A stretch of 64,000 nt of DNA from Fibrobacterales bacterium (GCA_051532055.1 JAOPTX010000015.1:153334-217333); one strand, 5' to 3'. Positions 43,362 through 49,856 are shown, counted from the stretch's first letter. A program made the numbers and translations. The notes: a model not told the origin generated them from the letters alone.

Positions 43362-43459
43362 ATTTTAGCATGAATATACGGCGTTATTTGAGTTTCGACG
43401 TACTCAAATACGCTTTCAATCAAAATGCCTTGTATCTCCATACTTAAAGTCTAATCTAC
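43353..43459. repeat. 107-nt nested inverted-repeat element between convergent genes
   Basis: The outer 15-bp arms are GTAGATTAGATTTTA and TAAAGTCTAATCTAC (one G:U), and they overlap the rimO stop. The inner hairpin at 43381-43413 has a 9-bp core TATTTGAGT/ACTCAAATA. Confidence 0.6.
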
Positions 43460-43494: not shown

Positions 43495-44151
43495 TTACTT
43501 GCGTTTACCTGTGATTTTGTCTTCGAGTTTAAAAAGGCTGCCGTATAGCTGAATCAGGTCGTCAATCCAGATAGCGTCACGCTCTGAAATTAGTTTACAG
43601 ACTTCAGAAACGTTGTTTGCATTGTTGTAAGGGCCCACTTGATTGTCAATTTTAGCAAAAGGTCTCATGAAGACTGAAGCTGAAAATTGAGCCCTCAAAG
43701 AGCGGTGAAGGCGGTCAAAGAGGCGTTTTTTAACTGTTTGAATGTCTTGCTGAATTGTATTGGGAGGTACTTTTTCACTCAGCTTTTTCTGAATATCGGC
43801 AAGTTCGGAAGCAATTGATTCTTTGTCTGGCTTTGGTATATAGAGTTGCTTATTGATAAAGAAGCGCTTAAGGTTTTTAAATTCTCGTTCTAAGAGTTCA
43901 GGACCAAAGGTGTTTGCAAAAGGTGTAAAGTCTTTGGTTATTTCTTTTATTTTTAAGTGTTTACCTTGGCGTTCTGCCCATGTATCAAGTCGCTCTATCA
44001 ATCGTAGTGCTATAGGTTCATTTCCTACTAAAAGGAATGACTCAGCTTGAATTATTATGGTGTCAGCATAGGCGTATTTATGTGTTCCACTTACTGTGTC
44101 ACTTTTCAGTTGGGCTATTCTTTTTTTCCACTCATTAATACGCGTTTGCAT
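43495..44151 (-). CDS. hypothetical cytoplasmic protein, last gene of the stator operon
   Basis: 218-aa ORF 5 nt after the MotB-like stop. No TM or signal peptide, helical character, no motif recognised. Confidence 0.5.
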   Translation of the reverse strand: MQTRINEWKKRIAQLKSDTVSGTHKYAYADTIIIQAESFLLVGNEPIALRLIERLDTWAERQGKHLKIKEITKDFTPFANTFGPELLEREFKNLKRFFINKQLYIPKPDKESIASELADIQKKLSEKVPPNTIQQDIQTVKKRLFDRLHRSLRAQFSASVFMRPFAKIDNQVGPYNNANNVSEVCKLISERDAIWIDDLIQLYGSLFKLEDKITGKRK

Positions 44152-44156
44152 TTTAA

Positions 44157-44828
44157 TTATCCGTCTATTTTTGAATCGATTGTAGGGACTCGGATGATCT
44201 CTACTCGTCTATTTTTCATACGATTGGATTCGTGACTGTTTTCAACCTTGGGGCGGAACTCACCAAAACCTGCAGCAAAAATTCTTGATGGTACTAATGT
44301 ATTACTTTTCTTCATAAGTATGTTTACCACATTAGTCGCTCTCTTTGTAGAGAGTTCCCAGTTTGATTTAAAGAATTTAGAATTAATAGGTATATCGTCT
44401 GTATGCCCTGCCACCATGAGCATTTCATTCTTTCCAAGACTACTTCCTAAGACGTCACTTATTTTTCGAAGGACATCTTTACCTTTCTTTTTAACTATTG
44501 AACTACCGGTCGAGAAAAGAAACTCTGCTTGTATTTCAATTTTACCATCAGTTAAAGTGACAGACCCATCTCTGAGAGAGTTTCCGAGGGCTTGTGCAAG
44601 AAGAGCGTCACGCTCGCGCTCTGCTTTCTCCTTTGCGGCTTTCTCTTTTTGAAACTCCTCTTCTTTACGAGTGAATGCATCGATTTGTTTTGTTAGCTCT
44701 GCTTCTTTATCAGATTTCAGTGAAGACATAAATATAAATGCGATAAGAAAGAGTACGAAGAGAGCCATGGTCAAGTCGGTAAACATAATCCATGGAGTTT
44801 CATCGTGTTTATCTAGGTGAATAGCCAT
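44157..44828 (-). CDS. MotB/OmpA-family stator subunit (ZorB-like)
   Basis: N-terminal TM with a conserved Asp (WIMFTDLTMALFVLFLIAF), a coiled-coil linker, and an OmpA-type peptidoglycan-binding C-domain (GHTDDIP..NWELSTKRA..NRRVEI). There is no gap to the upstream gene. Confidence 0.8.
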   Translation of the reverse strand: MAIHLDKHDETPWIMFTDLTMALFVLFLIAFIFMSSLKSDKEAELTKQIDAFTRKEEEFQKEKAAKEKAERERDALLAQALGNSLRDGSVTLTDGKIEIQAEFLFSTGSSIVKKKGKDVLRKISDVLGSSLGKNEMLMVAGHTDDIPINSKFFKSNWELSTKRATNVVNILMKKSNTLVPSRIFAAGFGEFRPKVENSHESNRMKNRRVEIIRVPTIDSKIDG

Positions 44829-46622
44829 CTAAACCTCTGGCTCCTGGTCATACTCTTCAAGTGATTCACCTTGTAATTTCACTTGCTCTAAAACTTCAAT
44901 AAGAATTTCTTGAGTCTTGAGTGCATTTTCAACCAACACTTCTGAGGCTTTCTCATGGAAGGCCTCGAGGGTGGATTCAAGCTTCTCATAAAAACTATTT
45001 TGGTCATCTGTTTCAGATTCAGAAGAAGAGATGTGTTCAATTAAAGATTCAACTCCTATAGTAAACATCTCGAGAGATGCTTGGAACTCAACTTGGTTGA
45101 TTTTCATGAGGTTACCGCCCTCAGAAATATTTTCAGTAAAGTTCATGAGTGAACTCATTTGCTCTGAGTATTGGGTTTCAAGTTCTTTACCTAATTTTTC
45201 TTGTATCTCAAAATTGACTTTTGCCGCTTGGGCGAGGGTTTCGAACTCGTCTTGTAGCTTGCTAAACCCATCTCGACTTATCATACTGATAGACTCTTTG
45301 AGGCTTTCTGTAAACTCGGTTGTTTTTTGGAATACGGTATCCATCTGACCTTGATTATGGCTCATGTATTCAGTTTGAAGCCCCCTGGATTGCTCTTGGT
45401 GGGTATTGAGTAGTTCCATCTGTTTTTCAATTTGCTGCCCTTGAGCTTCTGGTATGGACTGTATTACAGTGTGGAGATTGTCGAGTTGAGTTGAAACACC
45501 TTGTGTACTCAGCTCAGCAATTTCTTTTTGCATATCAGGAATGGTTTTAATAAAACTGTTCAGCTCTGAAAGGCGCTCAGCAATTTCATTTGATGTGTTA
45601 CTGCTAATTTCTTTTTGGGATTCAAGAATTGAGTGGGCGCTATTCTCAACTTGAGAACTAAATGATGCGAGAAGTTCTCTTTGAGTTTCAATGGCCTCTG
45701 AGGCACTTTGGGAATGTTTGCTAATGATGTCATCAAGAACGGATTTATGAGAGCCAGAGAGTTGTTCAATTACTAGAGAGTTTGCATCTGTGATTGATTG
45801 TTGCAATGTGGTAAACGTAGACTCTAGTTTGTCACTAATTTGGTTACTCAGTGATGCAGAGTTATTGGTTAGCTGTGTACTCATATCGTTTGAGTGTTCA
45901 GTAAGTTTACTGCCAAGGGAATCTACAAATTGTGAGAGGTTACTGCTGAGCTCTGTAATGAGTTGTTCATTACGATTCTCCTGTTCAGGAGCGAGCTGGG
46001 GAATGAGATAAAAGTGAGTGTACTCTTCTACTTCGGACATCATCTCAATATAAGCATTTTTAACCACAGAGTTTGCGACGCTTAAAAGCATGAATGCAAT
46101 GAGACCTGTTAAACTGGTGCCAAAAATACCATTCATGTCAGAGAAAATTGTAGTTATAAGTGTTTGAATTTCAAAACTTTCACTCATTGAACTTCCGGCT
46201 GTGGAAATTGCACCCATCAAGCCAAAAAAGGTGCCAAGAAGACCGAGAGTCATAGTAAGATTGGCTGCTGAAGAGCCTAGTTTACTCGAAGCGCGAGCAG
46301 AGAGTATTTCAGAAAATGCAGAGAGGTCGACATGTTGATCGCGAGATTGTAGATCTTTGAGGATTTCATAGCGCTGATAGATAATTCTATCAGAAGGTTC
46401 AATAGTCGAATTTCCCGTACTCTTTTGTTCATGGATAGCATCTATTTCTGCTTGGGCAAAGGCGAGATTCTTAAGGTTCTTTAATTGGGTATATGCAAAG
46501 ATAGCAAGGAGCACTCCCCATATTACATAGCCATAAAGGGGGAACTGAAAATAGAGACACCCAATAAGACCTGCAAGTCCGAGGATGCTGAGAAAGATTA
46601 TTTTCCGTACAGCTGCTTTCAT
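44829..46622 (-). CDS. MotA/ExbB-like channel protein with a helical C-terminal tail of about 400 aa (ZorA-like architecture)
   Basis: Two N-terminal TM segments, then LGLLGTFFGLMGAI and GIFGTSLTGLIAFMLL (MotA_ExbB signature). Residues from about 200 to 597 are Ser/Gln/Glu/Leu-rich with no further TM. Confidence 0.75.
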   Translation of the reverse strand: MKAAVRKIIFLSILGLAGLIGCLYFQFPLYGYVIWGVLLAIFAYTQLKNLKNLAFAQAEIDAIHEQKSTGNSTIEPSDRIIYQRYEILKDLQSRDQHVDLSAFSEILSARASSKLGSSAANLTMTLGLLGTFFGLMGAISTAGSSMSESFEIQTLITTIFSDMNGIFGTSLTGLIAFMLLSVANSVVKNAYIEMMSEVEEYTHFYLIPQLAPEQENRNEQLITELSSNLSQFVDSLGSKLTEHSNDMSTQLTNNSASLSNQISDKLESTFTTLQQSITDANSLVIEQLSGSHKSVLDDIISKHSQSASEAIETQRELLASFSSQVENSAHSILESQKEISSNTSNEIAERLSELNSFIKTIPDMQKEIAELSTQGVSTQLDNLHTVIQSIPEAQGQQIEKQMELLNTHQEQSRGLQTEYMSHNQGQMDTVFQKTTEFTESLKESISMISRDGFSKLQDEFETLAQAAKVNFEIQEKLGKELETQYSEQMSSLMNFTENISEGGNLMKINQVEFQASLEMFTIGVESLIEHISSSESETDDQNSFYEKLESTLEAFHEKASEVLVENALKTQEILIEVLEQVKLQGESLEEYDQEPEV

Positions 46623-46640
46623 TAAGAGAATCCTTTTAAT

Positions 46641-47582
46641 TTACTTTTTATTTTTAAAGAGGTCGAGTTGTCCTTGTGAAAATCCGCGCGAAAATATTTC
46701 CCACTTAGTTTTGTACCAGTGTGATAATTCGAGAGAGATTCCCAGGCAAAAGTCGATATAATCTTCTGTAAATGCTCTGAAACCATTGTCCCATAAACCT
46801 AGTGGGTTCCACACTCTATTACCAATAGCGTTAAAAAGTGCAGCTTCAGTAGCGTAATAGCGTTTAGGTTGTTTTTGAATACCTGTGATAAACTTCTTTT
46901 GTGCAAGTGTGTAGAGGGAGCTTCGTATGTTTGTAATTACATTTTGATCTATGTTACGAAGACCGGCTTCAAGGGTAGGGAGTATCTTGGTTACAGGGGT
47001 CGAAATAGAATTTTGATGCCAAAGATTCGATCCATTTTTTTGAATATGGGTTGCTCGTGAATAAGTTGTAACAAGATTTTTTTCTGAATCGCCTACCATC
47101 AGATGGAGTGTTTGTAAAAAGAAATCTTTTATCTCTTTGGTGCGATGGCCAACTTTAAGTCGGTACCCCTCATCACTTTTTTCAATCCAGCCACCTTCTC
47201 TAAGGACGGGAAGCATGACATCAGCGGTGAGTCTCTGAGCCCATTTAGATCTGAAGTCTGCAAATTTATCTTCTATTTCTTTATTCAGGGCGTTAAACTC
47301 TCGTTGGCAAAATTTGAGACACTCTTCTGATTCAGAAATATATTCACTCTCTAGGGTGAAGTTTTTCTGAGATTGTTCAATATGTTCCCTTAATATAATG
47401 GAGTATGAGTTGTTCATTGAATGACTCAATTGTTGAACTACCTCTTGTTGAGGCAAAAAGCTTTTAAGGTCAACAATTGACTGACCGGTAAACTGTTTGA
47501 AAGCTTTCCTGAAGTTACTATCCAAAGGGTATATTTTCGGTTGAATTTCGAAGTAGAAATATAGAAATTCTAGGGGGATCAA
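46641..47582 (-). CDS. hypothetical cytoplasmic protein
   Basis: 313-aa ORF 18 nt upstream of the MotA-like gene. No TM and no recognised motif. The start is uncertain: the TTG at 47582 lacks a Shine-Dalgarno site. Confidence 0.45.
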   Translation of the reverse strand: MIPLEFLYFYFEIQPKIYPLDSNFRKAFKQFTGQSIVDLKSFLPQQEVVQQLSHSMNNSYSIILREHIEQSQKNFTLESEYISESEECLKFCQREFNALNKEIEDKFADFRSKWAQRLTADVMLPVLREGGWIEKSDEGYRLKVGHRTKEIKDFFLQTLHLMVGDSEKNLVTTYSRATHIQKNGSNLWHQNSISTPVTKILPTLEAGLRNIDQNVITNIRSSLYTLAQKKFITGIQKQPKRYYATEAALFNAIGNRVWNPLGLWDNGFRAFTEDYIDFCLGISLELSHWYKTKWEIFSRGFSQGQLDLFKNKK

Positions 47583-47639
47583 CAGTGAAAATTGGGAGGC
47601 CTAACAAATTGGTTAAACCACCATTTCATTAATGAGAGC

Positions 47640-48332
47640 TTAAAAAGTAGTTTCTATTGATTTCCAGATAGATTTCGCGATTTTCTTCTCTGTTATTGGT
47701 TTTTGACTCATGTTGATAGCATTCATGATTCGATTGTTTTTGTTCACCGATTGGGTAAGCTTCAATACGCCATCCATTTCAAGATAAGTACCAAATGCAT
47801 TGTTCTCAATAGTAGCACCTTTCACAGATACCTCTCCATTTGCAACAGTAATACCATAGCGGTTCTCGGTAAATGACCCACCACTAATGTGAACATCCTT
47901 AGAATTTTCGATCCATACACCATAATGGTTATTGATAAATTGACTCTCTTTTAATGTACCGTGAACATTGAGAAATGAATTTTTAAAGCCGTTCATAATC
48001 ACAACATAATTCATGACAATTGGTGATTGAGACCCATTAATATGCAGTCCAACCCAATGATTACTCGGGTTCTCGGCATGAAAAACAATGTTTTTTTGAG
48101 GGGTACCAAGAAATCGGATATGGCCTCTCAGGAGGAGCTTTGTGTAGTTTCTAAATTTGAGTACAACACCACCTTCAATCGTAAGAGTGTCTTCAGTATT
48201 GTTAAAAAGGTTTTCGTCGATTATATAGGGGCTATCACCCTGGTGAAGATAGACAGAACCCTTAAGAGAGGTTAGTATGGTGTTGGCATTGAGAGTTGTA
48301 ACGAGTAGCGCAATTGATAAAAATTTTATCAT
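47640..48332 (-). CDS. secreted parallel beta-helix repeat protein
   Basis: Signal peptide (MIKFLSIALLVTTLNA), and PbH1-like repeats of about 22 aa (NNHYGVWIENSKDVHISGGSFTENRYGITVANGEVSVKGATIENNAFGTYLE). Confidence 0.6.
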   Translation of the reverse strand: MIKFLSIALLVTTLNANTILTSLKGSVYLHQGDSPYIIDENLFNNTEDTLTIEGGVVLKFRNYTKLLLRGHIRFLGTPQKNIVFHAENPSNHWVGLHINGSQSPIVMNYVVIMNGFKNSFLNVHGTLKESQFINNHYGVWIENSKDVHISGGSFTENRYGITVANGEVSVKGATIENNAFGTYLEMDGVLKLTQSVNKNNRIMNAINMSQKPITEKKIAKSIWKSIETTF

Positions 48333-49123
48333 GGAACCCTCTGAAGTGTAACAGACTGAATAATTTGATAATTTGGGAATAGCTTGTTTGCAATTTTAAG
48401 ACTGACAGTTCCGGAAATATCAAAATTGCCAAACTCCAGATCACCATCATCAATGTTAAACACAAGAGAACCTTGGCCAAGAATAAAATTATCTTCTGCT
48501 ATCATTAGTGCACTCTCTTCTATTTTGTATTTAAGAGTGGTTAAAATTTTGGCAAATGACTGATCACCATTGGAATAAATATCATTGACTTTAAACCATT
48601 TATAAAGGTAGTTGCTCCTGTTTTCTCCTGTAGGAATTTTGAGTTGCTTTTCCCAGGTGTCCCCGATGTATGTTTCATGCCTGGGGAGAGATGGCTGAAT
48701 TTTAAGGAGGATGTTTGCGAGGTTAAAACCTGATACTTCCATTTCATCTGCAGCATTATTTTTTTCAAAGTCCTTGATTTCACCATAGGGATTAATTTTA
48801 AACTCAGATTTTTGAGAAAGAAGATAGTGCTCAATATGACGACACTCTTCTACGGTATATTGATTAGATCTGAAATCAATAGAGTCTATTCCGATTAAAA
48901 ACCGGCTGGTTTTGTCGTCAAAAGCTGATAGCAATGATTTGGTGAAGTAGATTTGCGCTTCACTAAAGAAACTACTCTCAGAGTCACCCGAAATCAGTTG
49001 GAGCTTTGTTTGTAAGAAATAATGACGTGGGGTTTCAGAAGTAAGATTAAAAGAGAGTTGTTTTGTCTCTTTTTGACACGCTGTAAATATGAGGATTGTT
49101 AATAAAAGGAGTGTTTTACCCAT
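48329..49123 (-). CDS. hypothetical lipoprotein
   Basis: Lipobox LIFTAC and beta-rich character. Overlaps the next gene by 4 nt (ATGA). Confidence 0.55.
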   Translation of the reverse strand: MGKTLLLLTILIFTACQKETKQLSFNLTSETPRHYFLQTKLQLISGDSESSFFSEAQIYFTKSLLSAFDDKTSRFLIGIDSIDFRSNQYTVEECRHIEHYLLSQKSEFKINPYGEIKDFEKNNAADEMEVSGFNLANILLKIQPSLPRHETYIGDTWEKQLKIPTGENRSNYLYKWFKVNDIYSNGDQSFAKILTTLKYKIEESALMIAEDNFILGQGSLVFNIDDGDLEFGNFDISGTVSLKIANKLFPNYQIIQSVTLQRVP

Positions 49124-49127
49124 TAAG

Positions 49128-49736
49128 TTAGTCTTCGCTAAAATCTATTGTAACATTTGTTAAATTTAAGTCTTTTAGCTGCGACTTTTGGGATAAATTT
49201 CGATACTCATCATTATTCTGGATGATTAACCCAAGTATTTTTGCACAATCTTCAGCTGTTTCTGCTACAACGAGCTCCTCAATATCTGGTGAAAATAGAT
49301 AGAATTTACCATCTTTTTGCCATTGAAGGGTTTTGATATTAGCTTCATCAAGTGCTGTTTCAACAATGGTTGGTTTCTTGATTTGTGAAGTAATAATCTC
49401 TTTGAGCTCATCAGGTGGAGTTGTTTTTAGAATACATTGATTGATTTTGTAGTTCTTAGCTTTTTTGGTAATGGTTTTATCAAATTCAGCTGAAGTAAGA
49501 AGAATAGGGGTGCGTTTGTATTGAGGAAGTTTGCGGATTTTTGTTGCGAGGTCAAATCCAGTGATACCTCCACCAAGATTATATTCTACAAGGAATGCAT
49601 CAAAAGTGTGTGATTTAATTAATTTCAAGGCATCCTGAACATTATTGGCAGGAAAAGTCTCTGCAATATCACTCAGATCTTTGGAGGTTTGCGCAGTTGC
49701 CTCTTTGCTGTCATCTAAATGGAGTATGTTAAACAA
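49128..49736 (-). CDS. single-domain receiver protein with Glu at the phospho-acceptor position plus a C-terminal domain of about 80 aa and unknown function
   Basis: CheY-like landmarks are present: LHLDDS (acidic pair), FLVEYNL (E51 where the Asp is expected), ILLTSA (Thr) and ILKTT (Lys). TTG start 4 nt after GAGGTGA. Confidence 0.7.
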   Translation of the reverse strand: MFNILHLDDSKEATAQTSKDLSDIAETFPANNVQDALKLIKSHTFDAFLVEYNLGGGITGFDLATKIRKLPQYKRTPILLTSAEFDKTITKKAKNYKINQCILKTTPPDELKEIITSQIKKPTIVETALDEANIKTLQWQKDGKFYLFSPDIEELVVAETAEDCAKILGLIIQNNDEYRNLSQKSQLKDLNLTNVTIDFSED

Positions 49737-49789
49737 CGGTCACCTCACAGTTTATAACAAGTGGTAGTACTATTTTATTGGTTTATTGT

Positions 49790-49817
49790 ATTATACTTTC
49801 GGCTATTATGCACTGAA
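49790..49817 (-). promoter_or_regulatory. candidate promoter TTCAGT-N16-TATAAT for the seven-gene operon
   Basis: Read on the minus strand, directly downstream of the trxB terminator and about 50 nt upstream of the TTG start. Confidence 0.3.
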
Positions 49818-49823
49818 AAATGA

Positions 49824-49856
49824 TAAAAAAAGGGGAGTTTCTAAAAAAACTCCCCT
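49824..49856 (-). terminator. rho-independent terminator of trxB
   Basis: 10-bp stem AGGGGAGTTT/AAACTCCCCT with a minus-strand T-run (plus-strand AAAAAAA at 49824-49830). Confidence 0.7.

What the first reader, a model, noticed from the sequence alone, without database searches (positions are those of the whole stretch)
43495..49817. Seven-gene operon around a long-tailed MotA-like channel and a MotB/OmpA stator: a Zorya-like core without recognisable Zorya effectors
**Seen in the sequence.** Seven minus-strand ORFs run from 49736 down to 43495. The gaps between them are 4, -4 (ATGA overlap), 57, 18, 0 and 5 nt. The first gene is preceded by a TTCAGT-N16-TATAAT box and a GAGGTGA Shine-Dalgarno site. 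The trxB terminator lies upstream and a nested hairpin lies downstream, so a single transcription unit is likely.

**Gene order:**
- a receiver protein with Glu at the acceptor position;
- a lipoprotein;
- a secreted parallel beta-helix protein;
- a 313-aa cytoplasmic orphan;
- a 597-aa MotA/ExbB-like protein with a helical tail of about 400 aa;
- a 223-aa MotB/OmpA-like protein with a TM Asp (FTDLT) and a peptidoglycan-binding domain;
- a 218-aa cytoplasmic orphan.

**Established knowledge.** MotA/ExbB proteins paired with MotB/ExbD proteins form ion-driven 5:2 rotary motors. A MotA-like subunit with a very long cytoplasmic coiled-coil tail, together with a peptidoglycan-anchored MotB-like partner, is the defining core (ZorA/ZorB) of Zorya anti-phage systems.

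**Inference.** This is either a divergent Zorya-type defence system with new partner proteins, or a new pmf-driven envelope-spanning machine regulated through a receiver domain. I could not see helicase, HNH or other nuclease motifs in any of the five partners.

**Caveat.** The flanks are housekeeping genes (rimO, trxB, gltBD) and there are no mobile-element marks, so a defence-island context is absent.
Basis: partly seen in the sequence, partly recalled or inferred. Interest (0 to 1): 0.85.

Follow-up and report, generated by a model that had tools for sequence, protein, structure and literature searches.

The report
Phylum-wide Zorya-III-like motor gene cluster
This is a distant, chromosomally fixed relative of the type III Zorya anti-phage system: a proton-driven, cell-wall-anchored membrane motor with a long internal tail and two helical partner proteins, inherited vertically across the cellulose-degrading phylum Fibrobacterota, which makes a core cellular role more likely than a mobile defence role.

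Summary
The seven minus-strand ORFs exist exactly as described. The 597-aa and 223-aa proteins are a ZorA/ZorB-type pair. PADLOC best hits are ZorA3 (2.9e-13) and ZorB3 (6.6e-39), ZorA chains are the only 5:2-motor subunits in the PDB matched by the A profile, and the stator Asp18 and peptidoglycan-binding motif are conserved.

The arrangement orphan313–A–B–orphan218 mirrors canonical type III Zorya (DUF3348–ZorA–ZorB–DUF2894). The downstream orphan is a remote DUF2894 relative (hhalign E 2e-4; 0/40 shuffled nulls reach it). The upstream orphan shows no detectable DUF3348 similarity and has a confident helical fold with no structural neighbour.

The conserved unit is not seven genes. A six-gene block (DUF6263 lipoprotein, beta-helix, F, A, B, G) keeps its order in 73 of 80 loci; 112 species genomes, almost all Fibrobacterota, carry the A protein. 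The Glu-for-Asp receiver occurs only in the window's lineage. One syntenic relative lacks the lipoprotein and beta-helix genes. Other lineages keep only F, a membrane-anchored A tail and G.

Flanks are housekeeping genes, and divergence tracks trxB and rimO, indicating vertical inheritance.

Verdict: a new variant of a known kind (type III-like Zorya). Its role is probably constitutive envelope sensing, with defence not excluded.

The parts
49831..49856 (-). Intrinsic terminator of the upstream trxB gene. It marks the upstream boundary of the transcription unit.
   Evidence: An 11-bp stem with 5 G-C pairs followed by T7.
49790..49819 (-). Promoter-like site (TTTTCA-N18-TATAAT). The Shine-Dalgarno sequence GAGGTGA lies just before the TTG start at 49736.
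   Evidence: Best-scoring site in the scan, 10 of 12 matches, and read directly in the sequence. The count of such sites in the region is not above chance, so this is not demonstrated.
49128..49736 (-). Pseudo-receiver protein of 202 aa: a REC domain with Glu at the phospho-acceptor position, plus an uncharacterised C-terminal domain of about 80 aa. It is a lineage-specific accessory gene.
   Evidence: Pfam Response_reg 1e-11. E51 aligns with CheY D57 in all four homologues. The gene is present only in the window, L001, L014 and L178.
48329..49123 (-). Exported lipoprotein of the DUF6263 family, 264 aa.
   Evidence: The lipobox Cys16 is invariant in 27 sequences. DUF6263 matches 23 of 27 family members, best E 1.8e-7. 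The gene is co-ordered with the core in 73 of 80 loci. A relative also accompanies the motor-less trio in L183.
47640..48332 (-). Exported right-handed beta-helix protein, NosD-like, 230 aa. Its start overlaps the lipoprotein stop by 4 nt.
   Evidence: Pfam Beta_helix matches 27 of 27 members and NosD 20 of 27. The N-terminal signal-like segment is read directly from the sequence. It has an Asn ladder and a conserved C-terminal W..IE..F. It is the fastest-evolving member, 55% identical in L001 where trxB is 87%.
46641..47525 (-). 'F' protein, at the position of the type III DUF3348 gene. It is cytoplasmic and almost entirely helical, with no structural neighbour; 294 aa from the TTG at 47525 (the ORF is open up to 47582).
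   Evidence: AlphaFold pLDDT 90.7, pTM 0.87. No neighbour in the PDB or BFVD. The family has 79 clusters, all with no Pfam annotation and all named members Fibrobacterota. No significant profile similarity to DUF3348.
44829..46622 (-). 'A' protein: ZorA-like channel subunit of 597 aa. It has a transmembrane head with MotA/ExbB-type channel motifs (about residues 1-200), a variable helical tail (about 215-430) and a strongly conserved tail tip (about 500-580).
   Evidence: PADLOC ZorA3 2.9e-13. hhalign against canonical ZorA3 gives probability 97%, E 4e-11. ZorA chains 8vvn and 8qyd are the only 5:2-motor subunits in the PDB matched by the family profile. Conservation map.
44157..44828 (-). 'B' protein: ZorB-like stator subunit of 223 aa. 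It has an N-terminal TM helix with Asp18, a charged helical linker and an OmpA-type peptidoglycan-binding domain. Its start abuts the A stop with a 0-nt gap.
   Evidence: PADLOC ZorB3 6.6e-39 over the full length. hhalign against ZorB3 gives probability 100%. Pfam OmpA 1e-16. Asp18 and the peptidoglycan-binding motif are conserved in 83 sequences.
43495..44151 (-). 'G' protein, at the position of the type III DUF2894 gene. It is a cytoplasmic all-helical protein of 218 aa and a remote DUF2894 relative.
   Evidence: hhalign of the diverse family profile against 86 DUF2894 proteins: score 33.7, E 2e-4, 183 collinear columns, 0 of 40 shuffled nulls reach it, and the control against DUF3348 stays at null level. 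One of 46 remote relatives hits Pfam DUF2894 at 0.0011. The model is all-helical with pLDDT 69.
43381..43413 (-). Imperfect inverted repeat in the convergent intergenic region between the G gene and rimO. It is a possible transcription stop.
   Evidence: Read directly in the sequence. The terminator scan does not report it because it lacks a T-run.

Best explanation
**What it is.** The locus encodes a divergent, vertically inherited relative of the type III Zorya cassette (F–ZorA–ZorB–G). In this lineage it is extended by two exported proteins (a DUF6263 lipoprotein and a small beta-helix protein) and by a phosphorylation-independent pseudo-receiver.

**How it most likely works.**
- *Shown by homology and conserved residues:* A and B form a ZorAB-type, ion-driven channel complex. 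B contributes the TM Asp (Asp18) and anchors the complex to peptidoglycan through its OmpA domain. A contributes the channel head and a cytoplasmic helical tail of about 390 residues.
- *Inferred by analogy with solved ZorAB:* the stoichiometry is 5:2, the tail is a pentameric coiled coil roughly 55-60 nm long, and ion flow makes A rotate around B when the peptidoglycan-binding domain engages the wall.
- *Inferred from co-retention:* the helical proteins F and G act at the conserved tail tip. Lineages that have lost the channel head and the stator still keep F, a membrane-anchored tail with the conserved tip, and G together.
- *Inferred from location and gene linkage only:* the lipoprotein and the beta-helix protein act on the periplasmic side, as envelope-state inputs or anchoring partners for B.

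**Biological role.** The cluster is present in at least 112 Fibrobacterota species genomes, sits at housekeeping loci, diverges in step with its neighbours and has no recognisable effector enzyme. I therefore think it is a constitutive envelope-state sensor or transducer of this phylum rather than a mobile defence island. A contribution to phage resistance, as reported for proteobacterial type III Zorya, remains possible.
For: **ZorAB identity:**
- PADLOC ZorA3 2.9e-13 and ZorB3 6.6e-39.
- hhalign against canonical type III proteins: A probability 97%, B probability 100%.
- ZorA chains are the only 5:2-motor subunits in the PDB matched by the A profile.
- Asp18, the peptidoglycan-binding motif and the channel motifs are conserved.

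**Type III relationship:**
- The gene order is the same as DUF3348–DUF802–OmpA–DUF2894 in L007, L008 and L013, and as the zorFABG order given in PMC11946911.
- G resembles DUF2894: E 2e-4, 0 of 40 nulls reach it, and the control is flat.

**Co-conservation:**
- The order lipoprotein–beta-helix–F–A–B–G is kept in 73 of 80 loci.
- 112 species genomes encode a relative of A.

**Vertical inheritance and housekeeping context:**
- Identities to L014, L001 and L178 are 95, 87 and 75% for trxB, against 89-98, 55-88 and 30-50% for the cluster proteins, with the same flanks throughout.
- In Fibrobacter the upstream gene is a true TadA equivalog and argH lies downstream.
- GC content is unremarkable.

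**F and G linked to the tail tip:**
- Fibromonadales loci, L181, L185 and L183 carry F-like, a TM-anchored tail-only A and G-like, with no channel head and no OmpA gene.
- The tip is the most conserved part of A, while the middle of the tail is not conserved.

**No effector enzyme:** (Pfam, NCBIfam, PADLOC; G model against the PDB; that model has only pLDDT 69; F model against the PDB and BFVD).
Against: - No experiment supports any part of this. Stoichiometry, rotation and the F/G–tail interaction are all inferred.
- F shows no detectable similarity to DUF3348, and the A tail tip shows none to the ZorA3 tail. The 'type III relative' claim therefore rests on A, B, gene order and a moderate G signal (HH probability only 46%).
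- The window's B is below the NCBIfam ZorB3 equivalog cut-off (125.6 against 194 bits). By sequence, its peptidoglycan-binding domain is closest to MotB and PomB among solved structures.
- The cluster proteins evolve faster than their neighbours, and tail length varies from 490 to 717 aa. This would also fit an arms race, that is, defence.
- The lipoprotein and beta-helix genes are missing in L178, so their membership in the machine is not obligatory.
- I could not determine what fraction of all Fibrobacterota genomes carry the cluster.
Confidence: 0.6

Rival explanations
1. It is a bona fide anti-phage Zorya system: a fourth subtype, or a deep branch of type III, that has become fixed in the Fibrobacterota chromosome. 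ZorAB senses phage-induced envelope perturbation. F and G, perhaps with host factors, execute the defence. The exported beta-helix protein and lipoprotein widen the range of sensed insults.
For: - A and B best match Zorya models, not flagellar, Tol or Exb models.
- The layout is that of type III, and G is related to DUF2894.
- Type III Zorya from Stenotrophomonas protected E. coli against phages (PMC8565338).
- The cluster proteins, especially the exported beta-helix protein, the tail and G, evolve faster than their neighbours.
- Tail length is variable.
- One MAG carries two copies.
Against: - The cluster is found in at least 112 species genomes at housekeeping loci and is inherited vertically. 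This is unlike the patchy, island-borne distribution typical of defence systems (established knowledge).
- No nuclease, helicase or other effector fold is present.
- The PADLOC DUF3348 and DUF2894 models, which score 245-306 bits on canonical proteins, do not see F or G.
- Motor-less F–tail–G variants persist in housekeeping synteny, whereas the motor is essential for Zorya I defence (PMC11946911).
Confidence: 0.27
2. It is an envelope-spanning output machine, analogous to Tol-Pal, GldLM/T9SS or Agl-Glt. The inner-membrane motor would drive movement, secretion or positioning of the beta-helix protein and lipoprotein at the outer membrane, for instance for adhesion to cellulose. F and G would be cytoplasmic regulators.
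For: - Two exported proteins are translationally coupled and lie directly upstream of the motor genes in 73 of 80 loci.
- Beta-helix proteins are often carbohydrate-binding or carbohydrate-active (Pfam Beta_helix/NosD).
- Fibrobacter depends on envelope complexes for cellulose adhesion (PMC6851124).
Against: - B has no long periplasmic force-transducing arm like TolA, TonB or GldM. It is a peptidoglycan anchor.
- L178 keeps receiver–F–A–B–G without the two exported proteins.
- No other lineage examined that keeps F, the A tail and G has the beta-helix gene; among them only L183 keeps a lipoprotein relative. The conserved business end is therefore cytoplasmic.
- No T9SS, Glt or Tol family hit was found.
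Confidence: 0.08
3. The seven genes are not one system. The F–A–B–G cassette is a unit, while the receiver, lipoprotein and beta-helix genes are merely neighbours that happen to share a strand and a promoter.
For: - The receiver is lineage-specific.
- The lipoprotein and beta-helix genes are absent in L178.
- A gap of 57-114 nt separates the beta-helix gene from F.
Against: - Lipoprotein–beta-helix–F–A–B–G keeps its order in 73 of 80 loci even though the flanks differ.
- A DUF6263-like lipoprotein also precedes F in the distant locus L183.
- The receiver stays next to the cassette in L178, where the receiver is only 35% identical.
Confidence: 0.05

Closest known systems
Zorya type III (DUF3348 protein – ZorA3/DUF802 – ZorB3 – DUF2894 protein; Payne et al. 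2021, PMC8565338)
   Same: - The four-gene order and strand are the same, and the partner proteins are of broadly similar size.
- A and B best match the ZorA3 and ZorB3 models and canonical proteins.
- The downstream partner is a remote DUF2894 relative.
- Both lack a recognisable nuclease or helicase effector.
- The canonical examples I fetched also sit among metabolic genes rather than in defence islands.
   Different: - The upstream partner F has no detectable DUF3348 similarity.
- A lacks a Pfam DUF802 hit and is shorter (597 aa against 719-810 aa). The tail tips are not alignable.
- B is below the ZorB3 equivalog cut-off.
- There are two extra exported proteins and, in this lineage, a pseudo-receiver.
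- Named members are confined to Fibrobacterota; the weakest relatives come from MAGs of unidentified taxonomy. The cluster is inherited vertically.
Zorya types I and II (ZorAB with ZorC/ZorD, or with ZorE; PMC11946911, PMC11890865)
   Same: Both have a MotA-like head with a long helical tail, and a peptidoglycan-binding ZorB with a TM Asp. The solved ZorA chains 8qyd and 8vvn are the only 5:2-motor subunits in the PDB matched by the A profile.
   Different: No ZorC, ZorD or ZorE homologue is present. The PADLOC scores for the type I and II models are far weaker than those for type III.
Flagellar stator MotAB/PomAB
   Same: The B subunit architecture is the same (TM Asp plus an OmpA-like peptidoglycan-binding domain), and this domain is the closest solved-structure match by sequence (MotB 6ysf/8ucs at 1e-21). 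A carries MotA/ExbB-type channel motifs.
   Different: The Pfam MotA_ExbB score is below the gathering threshold (14.1 against 22.9 bits). In place of the compact torque-generating cytoplasmic domain there is a tail of about 390 aa. The A profile matches no MotA or PomA chain in the PDB.
Tol-Pal, ExbBD-TonB and GldLM/Agl envelope motors
   Same: All belong to the general class of ion-driven 5:2 inner-membrane motors encoded next to genes for periplasmic or outer-membrane proteins.
   Different: B is a peptidoglycan anchor, not an ExbD/TolR/GldM-type subunit. There is no TolA- or TonB-like partner, and no family hit to Tol, Exb, Gld or Agl components.

Membership tests
Zorya (any type) | ZorA: a MotA/ExbB-like membrane head followed by a long C-terminal helical tail | tested here: met
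   PADLOC ZorA3 2.9e-13, covering residues 125-571. hhalign against canonical ZorA3 gives probability 97%. ZorA chains are the only 5:2-motor subunits in the PDB matched by the family profile.
Zorya (any type) | ZorB: an N-terminal TM helix with the ion-binding Asp, plus an OmpA-like peptidoglycan-binding domain, encoded immediately after zorA | tested here: met
   PADLOC ZorB3 6.6e-39 over the full length. Pfam OmpA 1e-16. Asp18 and the peptidoglycan-binding motif are conserved in 83 sequences. The gap between A and B is 0 nt.
Zorya (any type) | ZorA5B2 assembly and ion-driven rotation | not testable with these tools
   No multimer modelling or experiment was available. This is inferred by analogy with 8qyd and 8vvn.
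Zorya (any type) | Demonstrated protection against phage | not testable with these tools
   Requires an experiment. The searchable literature contains no report describing Zorya in Fibrobacter: the one paper holding both words is a Tn7 cargo-gene survey that I did not read.
Zorya types I and II | Effector genes zorC and zorD (type I) or zorE (type II) next to zorAB | tested here: not met
   None of the five partner proteins gives a PADLOC hit at E <= 0.1.
Zorya type III | Gene order: partner – zorA – zorB – partner, on one strand | tested here: met
   The window has F–A–B–G. Canonical loci L007, L008 and L013 have the same order, as does the zorFABG order in PMC11946911.
Zorya type III | A DUF3348-domain protein encoded upstream of zorA | tested here: not met
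   Neither Pfam nor PADLOC hits any F family member, although the PADLOC models score 306 bits on the canonical protein. hhalign scores are at null level: 14 of 60 and 4 of 40 shuffles reach the real score. Only the position and the rough size correspond.
Zorya type III | A DUF2894-domain protein encoded downstream of zorB | tested here: inconclusive
   No direct HMM hit for the window protein. However, the profile-profile comparison gives E 2e-4, 183 collinear columns, 0 of 40 nulls and a flat control. One of 46 remote relatives hits Pfam DUF2894 at 0.0011. I read this as remote homology with moderate support (HH probability 46%).
Zorya type III | ZorA3 carries DUF802, and ZorB3 meets the NCBIfam PRK09040 equivalog cut-off | tested here: not met
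   A has no DUF802 hit at E <= 0.1. B scores 125.6 bits against a cut-off of 194, whereas canonical ZorB3 proteins score 343-386 bits.
Defence island / mobile defence system (context criterion) | Patchy distribution, neighbouring defence or mobility genes, atypical composition | tested here: not met
   112 species genomes carry it. The flanks are tadA/argH or trxB/rimO. Divergence tracks the neighbours. GC content is unremarkable.
Flagellar MotAB stator | MotA with a compact cytoplasmic torque-generating domain; Pfam MotA_ExbB above threshold; flagellar gene context | tested here: not met
   MotA_ExbB scores 14.1 bits, below the gathering score of 22.9. A long tail replaces the compact domain. 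No flagellar genes lie near the cluster in the window or in the 80 loci.
Tol-Pal / ExbBD-TonB | An ExbD/TolR-type B subunit and a TolA/TonB partner | tested here: not met
   B is OmpA-type. None of the seven proteins hits a Tol, Exb or TonB family.

The most novel reading that the evidence does not exclude
The cluster may be the first example of a Zorya-type motor that serves as a core, non-defence component of a bacterial phylum.

On this reading, the ancestral functional unit is a membrane-tethered cytoplasmic complex made of F, the tip of the A tail and G. The ZorAB ion-driven head and stator are an optional power or sensing module that some lineages have discarded.

If so, proteobacterial type III 'Zorya', which also lacks an effector enzyme and also sits among metabolic genes, might itself be primarily an envelope-surveillance machine whose anti-phage effect is secondary.
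Probability: 0.35. Interest if true: 0.8.

Novelty: new variant of a known kind. Interest (0 to 1): 0.62.

Why it matters
- **Type III mechanism.** Type III is the least understood Zorya type. Its two partner proteins have no known function or structure: no PDB entry matches them by sequence.
- **A natural experiment.** This family provides a deeply diverged, vertically inherited sister group with natural 'deletion series': with and without the exported proteins, with and without the receiver, and with and without the motor head and stator. These variants point to the tail tip together with F and G as the functional core, and they give concrete interaction hypotheses to test.
- **Defence annotation.** A ZorAB-like hit is commonly taken to mean 'defence system'. 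Here the distribution looks like that of a housekeeping machine.
- **Fibrobacter biology.** This is a phylum-wide, uncharacterised envelope-associated motor in organisms whose envelope biology underlies cellulose degradation.

Tried and rejected
- **F against DUF3348.** I ran four rounds of hhalign: 5 sequences, 85 sequences, 57 sequences including Fibromonadales, and 36 sequences including L181/L183/L185. All stayed at null level. Two short motif correspondences seen by eye (LSQ.M..WSIAL.EHL against LSQWLGWTDAIALS.AL; ESAVDAVSK against LAVVDAVME) are therefore not claimed.
- **G against DUF2894 with Fibrobacter-only profiles.** This was not significant: E 0.01-0.08, with the controls scoring as well. 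It became significant only with the diverse relatives found by the exhaustive HMMER search.
- **A tail tip against the ZorA3 tail.** Null result; 9 of 30 shuffles reach the real score.
- **The upstream deaminase in Fibrobacter loci as a possible defence effector.** Rejected. It passes the TadA equivalog cut-off.
- **Structure searches for F and G.** No meaningful matches. Against the PDB the best E for F is 0.019 with TM below 0.27; the best E for G is 0.9, and the G model has only pLDDT 69. F against BFVD also gave nothing.
- **PDB sequence-profile searches** for F, G, the lipoprotein and the beta-helix protein found nothing credible.
- **Apolipoprotein matches of A** (Pfam and PDB) are treated as compositional matches to an amphipathic helical tail.
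- **Linking to F. succinogenes S85 locus tags and proteomics.** This failed because the cluster-member look-up timed out. The S85 envelope proteome paper lists several OmpA and ExbB/MotA proteins, but I could not map any of them to this cluster.
- **Rfam scan of the window.** Only three tRNAs, and nothing in the cluster.

Full report
**1. Observation**

The seven minus-strand ORFs are present at the coordinates given: 49128-49736, 48329-49123, 47640-48332, 46641-47582, 44829-46622, 44157-44828 and 43495-44151. The junctions are 4, -4, 57, 18, 0 and 5 nt.

- Upstream lies a strong trxB terminator (11-bp stem followed by T7, at 49856-49831). It is followed by a TATAAT-containing promoter-like site at 49819-49790, and GAGGTGA precedes the TTG start.
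- Promoter-like sites are no more frequent in this region than in shuffled sequence (19 against 17.3), so the promoter is only plausible.
- The downstream inverted repeat (about 43381-43413) is real but has no T-run.
- The 313-aa ORF probably starts at the TTG at 47525, giving 294 aa as in its close relatives.
- GC content across the cluster (0.36-0.39) is like the rest of the window.
- The window comes from a Fibrobacterales MAG. The A protein is 100% identical to a protein named 'MAG: hypothetical protein OCC49_06850 [Fibrobacterales bacterium]'.

**2. What the proteins are**

| Gene | Size | Identity | Key evidence |
|---|---|---|---|
| Receiver | 202 aa | REC domain plus an unknown C-terminal domain of about 80 aa | Pfam Response_reg 1e-11. 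Glu replaces the acceptor Asp (CheY D57) in all four homologues; the DD, T and K positions remain. It is a phosphorylation-independent pseudo-receiver. |
| Lipoprotein | 264 aa | DUF6263 family | Lipobox Cys16 is invariant. DUF6263 matches 23 of 27 members. |
| Beta-helix | 230 aa | Beta_helix/NosD-like, exported | Matches 27 of 27 and 20 of 27 members. |
| A | 597 aa | ZorA-like | PADLOC ZorA3 2.9e-13. Pfam MotA_ExbB only 14 bits, below threshold. |
| B | 223 aa | ZorB-like | PADLOC ZorB3 6.6e-39 over the full length; Pfam OmpA 1e-16. |

Further support for A and B:
- Against canonical type III proteins fetched from Burkholderiales replicons, hhalign gives A probability 97% (head domain) and B probability 100%.
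- In the PDB, ZorA chains (8vvn at 3e-7, 8qyd at 4e-7) are the only 5:2-motor subunits matched by the A-family profile. The remaining hits are mostly apolipoproteins, with a few other helical or coiled-coil proteins, and are compositional matches to the tail.
- B's peptidoglycan-binding domain is closest to MotB and PomB among solved structures.
- Across 83-85 family members, B keeps pW..TDL (Asp18) and the motif G.TDD...NW.LS..RA. A keeps LGL.GTFFGLM and GIFGtSL.GL. The middle of A's tail (about 215-430) is unconserved, while its tip (about 500-580) is strongly conserved.

**3. Relation to type III Zorya**

Type III Zorya is defined as zorA and zorB flanked by a DUF3348 gene and a DUF2894 gene, in the order zorF-A-B-G (PMC8565338, PMC11946911). 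Canonical loci L007, L008 and L013 show DUF3348–DUF802–OmpA–DUF2894. The window's orphan313–A–B–orphan218 has the same layout.

*Direct HMM scans fail.* Pfam and PADLOC find nothing for any F or G family member. The positive control works: the same PADLOC models score 245-306 bits on the canonical proteins. Note that PADLOC-DB v2 swaps the ZorF and ZorG labels relative to the papers, so I refer to the partners by DUF number.

*Profile-profile tests with empirical nulls:*
- With Fibrobacter-only profiles, neither partner is distinguishable from shuffled templates.
- The one exhaustive HMMER search, run with the G profile, found 83 representatives with a graded tail of remote full-length relatives. 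One of these hits Pfam DUF2894 at 0.0011.
- With this diverse profile, G against 86 DUF2894 proteins scores 33.7 (E 2e-4, probability 46%) over 183 collinear columns. The shuffled nulls have mean 13.6, sd 3.0 and maximum 26.4, and none of 40 reaches the real score. The reversed template scores 22, and the control against DUF3348 scores 16.9.
- I therefore accept G as a remote DUF2894 relative, with moderate confidence.
- F remains at null level even with added divergent members.
- The A tail tip is not alignable to the ZorA3 tail.

*Structures:*
- F models confidently (pLDDT 90.7, pTM 0.87) as a helical protein with one small hairpin. It has no neighbour in the PDB or BFVD.
- G is all-helical with pLDDT 69, and has no neighbour in the PDB.
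- No solved structure matches DUF3348 or DUF2894 proteins by sequence.

**4. Distribution and co-conservation**

A pattern scan of one genome per GTDB species found 112 genomes encoding a relative of A.
- Almost all are Fibrobacterota: Fibrobacter, Hallerella, Fibrobacteraceae, Fibrobacterales and 'Fibrobacteres/Fibrobacteria' MAGs. They include the cultured F. intestinalis ATCC 43854.
- Five bins with other labels have typical Fibrobacter flanks and are probably mis-binned.

In the 80 loci fetched, 73 have exactly lipoprotein–beta-helix–F–A–B–G on one strand. One further locus, L014 (the 93%-identical relative), has these six genes preceded by the receiver. The other six loci lack one to three of the six genes.

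Gene content by lineage:

| Lineage or locus | Genes present |
|---|---|
| Window, L001, L014 | receiver, lipoprotein, beta-helix, F, A, B, G |
| L178 (same trxB…rimO–SPOR–S21–YqeY–HD-GYP synteny as the window) | receiver, F, A, B, G |
| Fibrobacter and relatives (73 loci) | lipoprotein, beta-helix, F, A, B, G |
| Fibromonadales (L174-L176) | F-like; a short (about 208-aa) protein with one TM helix and only the conserved tip of A; G-like |
| L181, L185 | F-like; TM-anchored tail-only A (411-414 aa); G-like |
| L183 | DUF6263-like lipoprotein; F-like; tail-only A (513 aa, 2 TM); G-like |

None of the last three groups has a channel head or an OmpA gene, and all sit in housekeeping synteny. The deepest conserved set is therefore F, the A tail and G. 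The ZorA head plus ZorB, the two exported proteins and the receiver are successively less universal layers.

**5. Context and inheritance**

- In Fibrobacter, the gene directly upstream is a genuine TadA (155-159 bits against a cut-off of 150). argH commonly lies downstream, with a few variable genes in between.
- In the window's lineage the flanks are trxB and rimO.
- Identity to L014, L001 and L178 falls in step: trxB 95, 87 and 75%; rimO 94, 82 and 63%; cluster proteins 89-98, 55-88 and 30-50%.
- This is vertical inheritance at a fixed site, with the cluster evolving faster than its neighbours. The fastest members are the beta-helix protein, G and A.
- No mobile-element or defence genes were seen nearby.

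**6. Mechanism**

*Shown by homology and residue conservation.* A and B are a ZorAB-type ion-channel pair. B has the ion-binding Asp and a peptidoglycan anchor.

*Inferred by analogy with the solved ZorAB structures (PMC11946911, PMC11890865).* The stoichiometry is 5:2, the tail is pentameric, and A rotates around B when B engages the wall.

*Inferred from co-retention.* F and G act at the conserved tail tip.

*Inferred from export signals and tight linkage only.* The lipoprotein and beta-helix protein provide periplasmic input to B, or anchor it. The Glu-for-Asp receiver would be a constitutive adaptor rather than a phospho-switch.

*Role.* I favour a constitutive envelope-state sensor or transducer over a classical defence island, because of the distribution, the context and the lack of any effector fold. 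The defence reading keeps substantial weight for two reasons: type III Zorya protects E. coli, and the cluster evolves fast.

**7. Novelty**

No paper in the searchable library mentions DUF6263. The only paper that contains both 'Fibrobacter' and 'Zorya' is a Tn7 cargo-gene survey, which I did not read. A 2025 survey of MotAB homologues shows ZorAB only for structural comparison, excludes it from its phylogenetic analyses and does not mention Fibrobacter.

I classify this as a new variant of a known kind: a type III-like Zorya cassette with an unrecognisable upstream partner, added periplasmic components, phylum-wide vertical inheritance and natural motor-less derivatives.

**8. Limits**

- Everything is computational.
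- The census is a lower bound, because detection relied on two peptide patterns.
- The taxonomy of the motor-less loci L181, L183 and L185 is unknown.
- The G–DUF2894 link is moderate.
- I could not fold DUF3348 or DUF2894 proteins, or any complex.
- I could not tie the cluster to expression data in F. succinogenes S85.

Noticed in passing
PADLOC-DB v2 models PDLC00652-00658 (tested on L007:2670-3374 and L007:6461-7030): PADLOC-DB labels the DUF3348 models 'ZorG3' and the DUF2894 models 'ZorF3'. The papers use the opposite naming (DUF3348 = ZorF, DUF2894 = ZorG). This can cause confusion when type III annotations are compared.
   Followed up: partly
L174:8001-9924, L176:8001-10168, L181:4733-7756, L183:3233-7978, L185:4799-7723: These are motor-less relatives. 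They carry F-like, a membrane-anchored protein made only of the A tail (208-513 aa) and G-like, in housekeeping synteny, with no channel head and no OmpA stator. L183 also has a DUF6263-like lipoprotein.
   Followed up: partly
L024 and L081 (both from MAG JAKSIE01, 'Horse_feces13'): One Fibrobacter MAG carries two copies of the six-gene cluster on different contigs with different flanks. This could be a paralogue or a mixed bin.
   Followed up: no
L071, L074, L082, L088, L090: Genomes labelled Oscillospiraceae, Eggerthellaceae, Sodaliphilus, Senegalimassilia and Methanomethylophilaceae, all from one 'H07xxx-L1_cleanbin' series, carry the cluster with the same flanking gene families as Fibrobacter loci. 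They are probably mis-binned contigs rather than horizontal transfer.
   Followed up: partly
L007 (Caballeronia plasmid NZ_CP071132.1) and L013 (Burkholderia sp. YI23 CP003090.1): Canonical type III Zorya sits just upstream of the same transketolase/MFS/SDR genes in both replicons, and no defence or mobility genes are nearby. The canonical system also looks chromosomally fixed in this group.
   Followed up: no
window:47640-48332 (-), C-terminus: The beta-helix family ends in a conserved W..IE..F-COOH (W223, E227 and the terminal F230 are invariant in 27 sequences). This could be a docking or sorting motif.
   Followed up: no
window:46641-47525 (-): The F family has a set of invariant polar residues (H141, D146, E186, K94/W95/R98, Y271/K274/R280 in 294-aa numbering; E47 and H48 are nearly invariant) on a fold with no structural neighbour. 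These suggest a binding or catalytic site of unknown nature.
   Followed up: no
window:23717-29068 (+) and window:29302-35589 (+): Two adjacent giant ORFs of 1783 aa and 2095 aa lie upstream of the region studied. I did not examine them.
   Followed up: no
window:38978-40147 (+): A GAF plus HD-GYP-type protein (Pfam GAF, HD and HD_5 on its homologues) is conserved in the same synteny block (HD-GYP, YqeY, S21, SPOR, rimO) in L001, L014 and L178.
   Followed up: no
window:43691-43712 (-): A terminator-like hairpin lies inside the G coding sequence. It is probably a chance match, since the region has 7 such sites against 4.6 expected.
   Followed up: no
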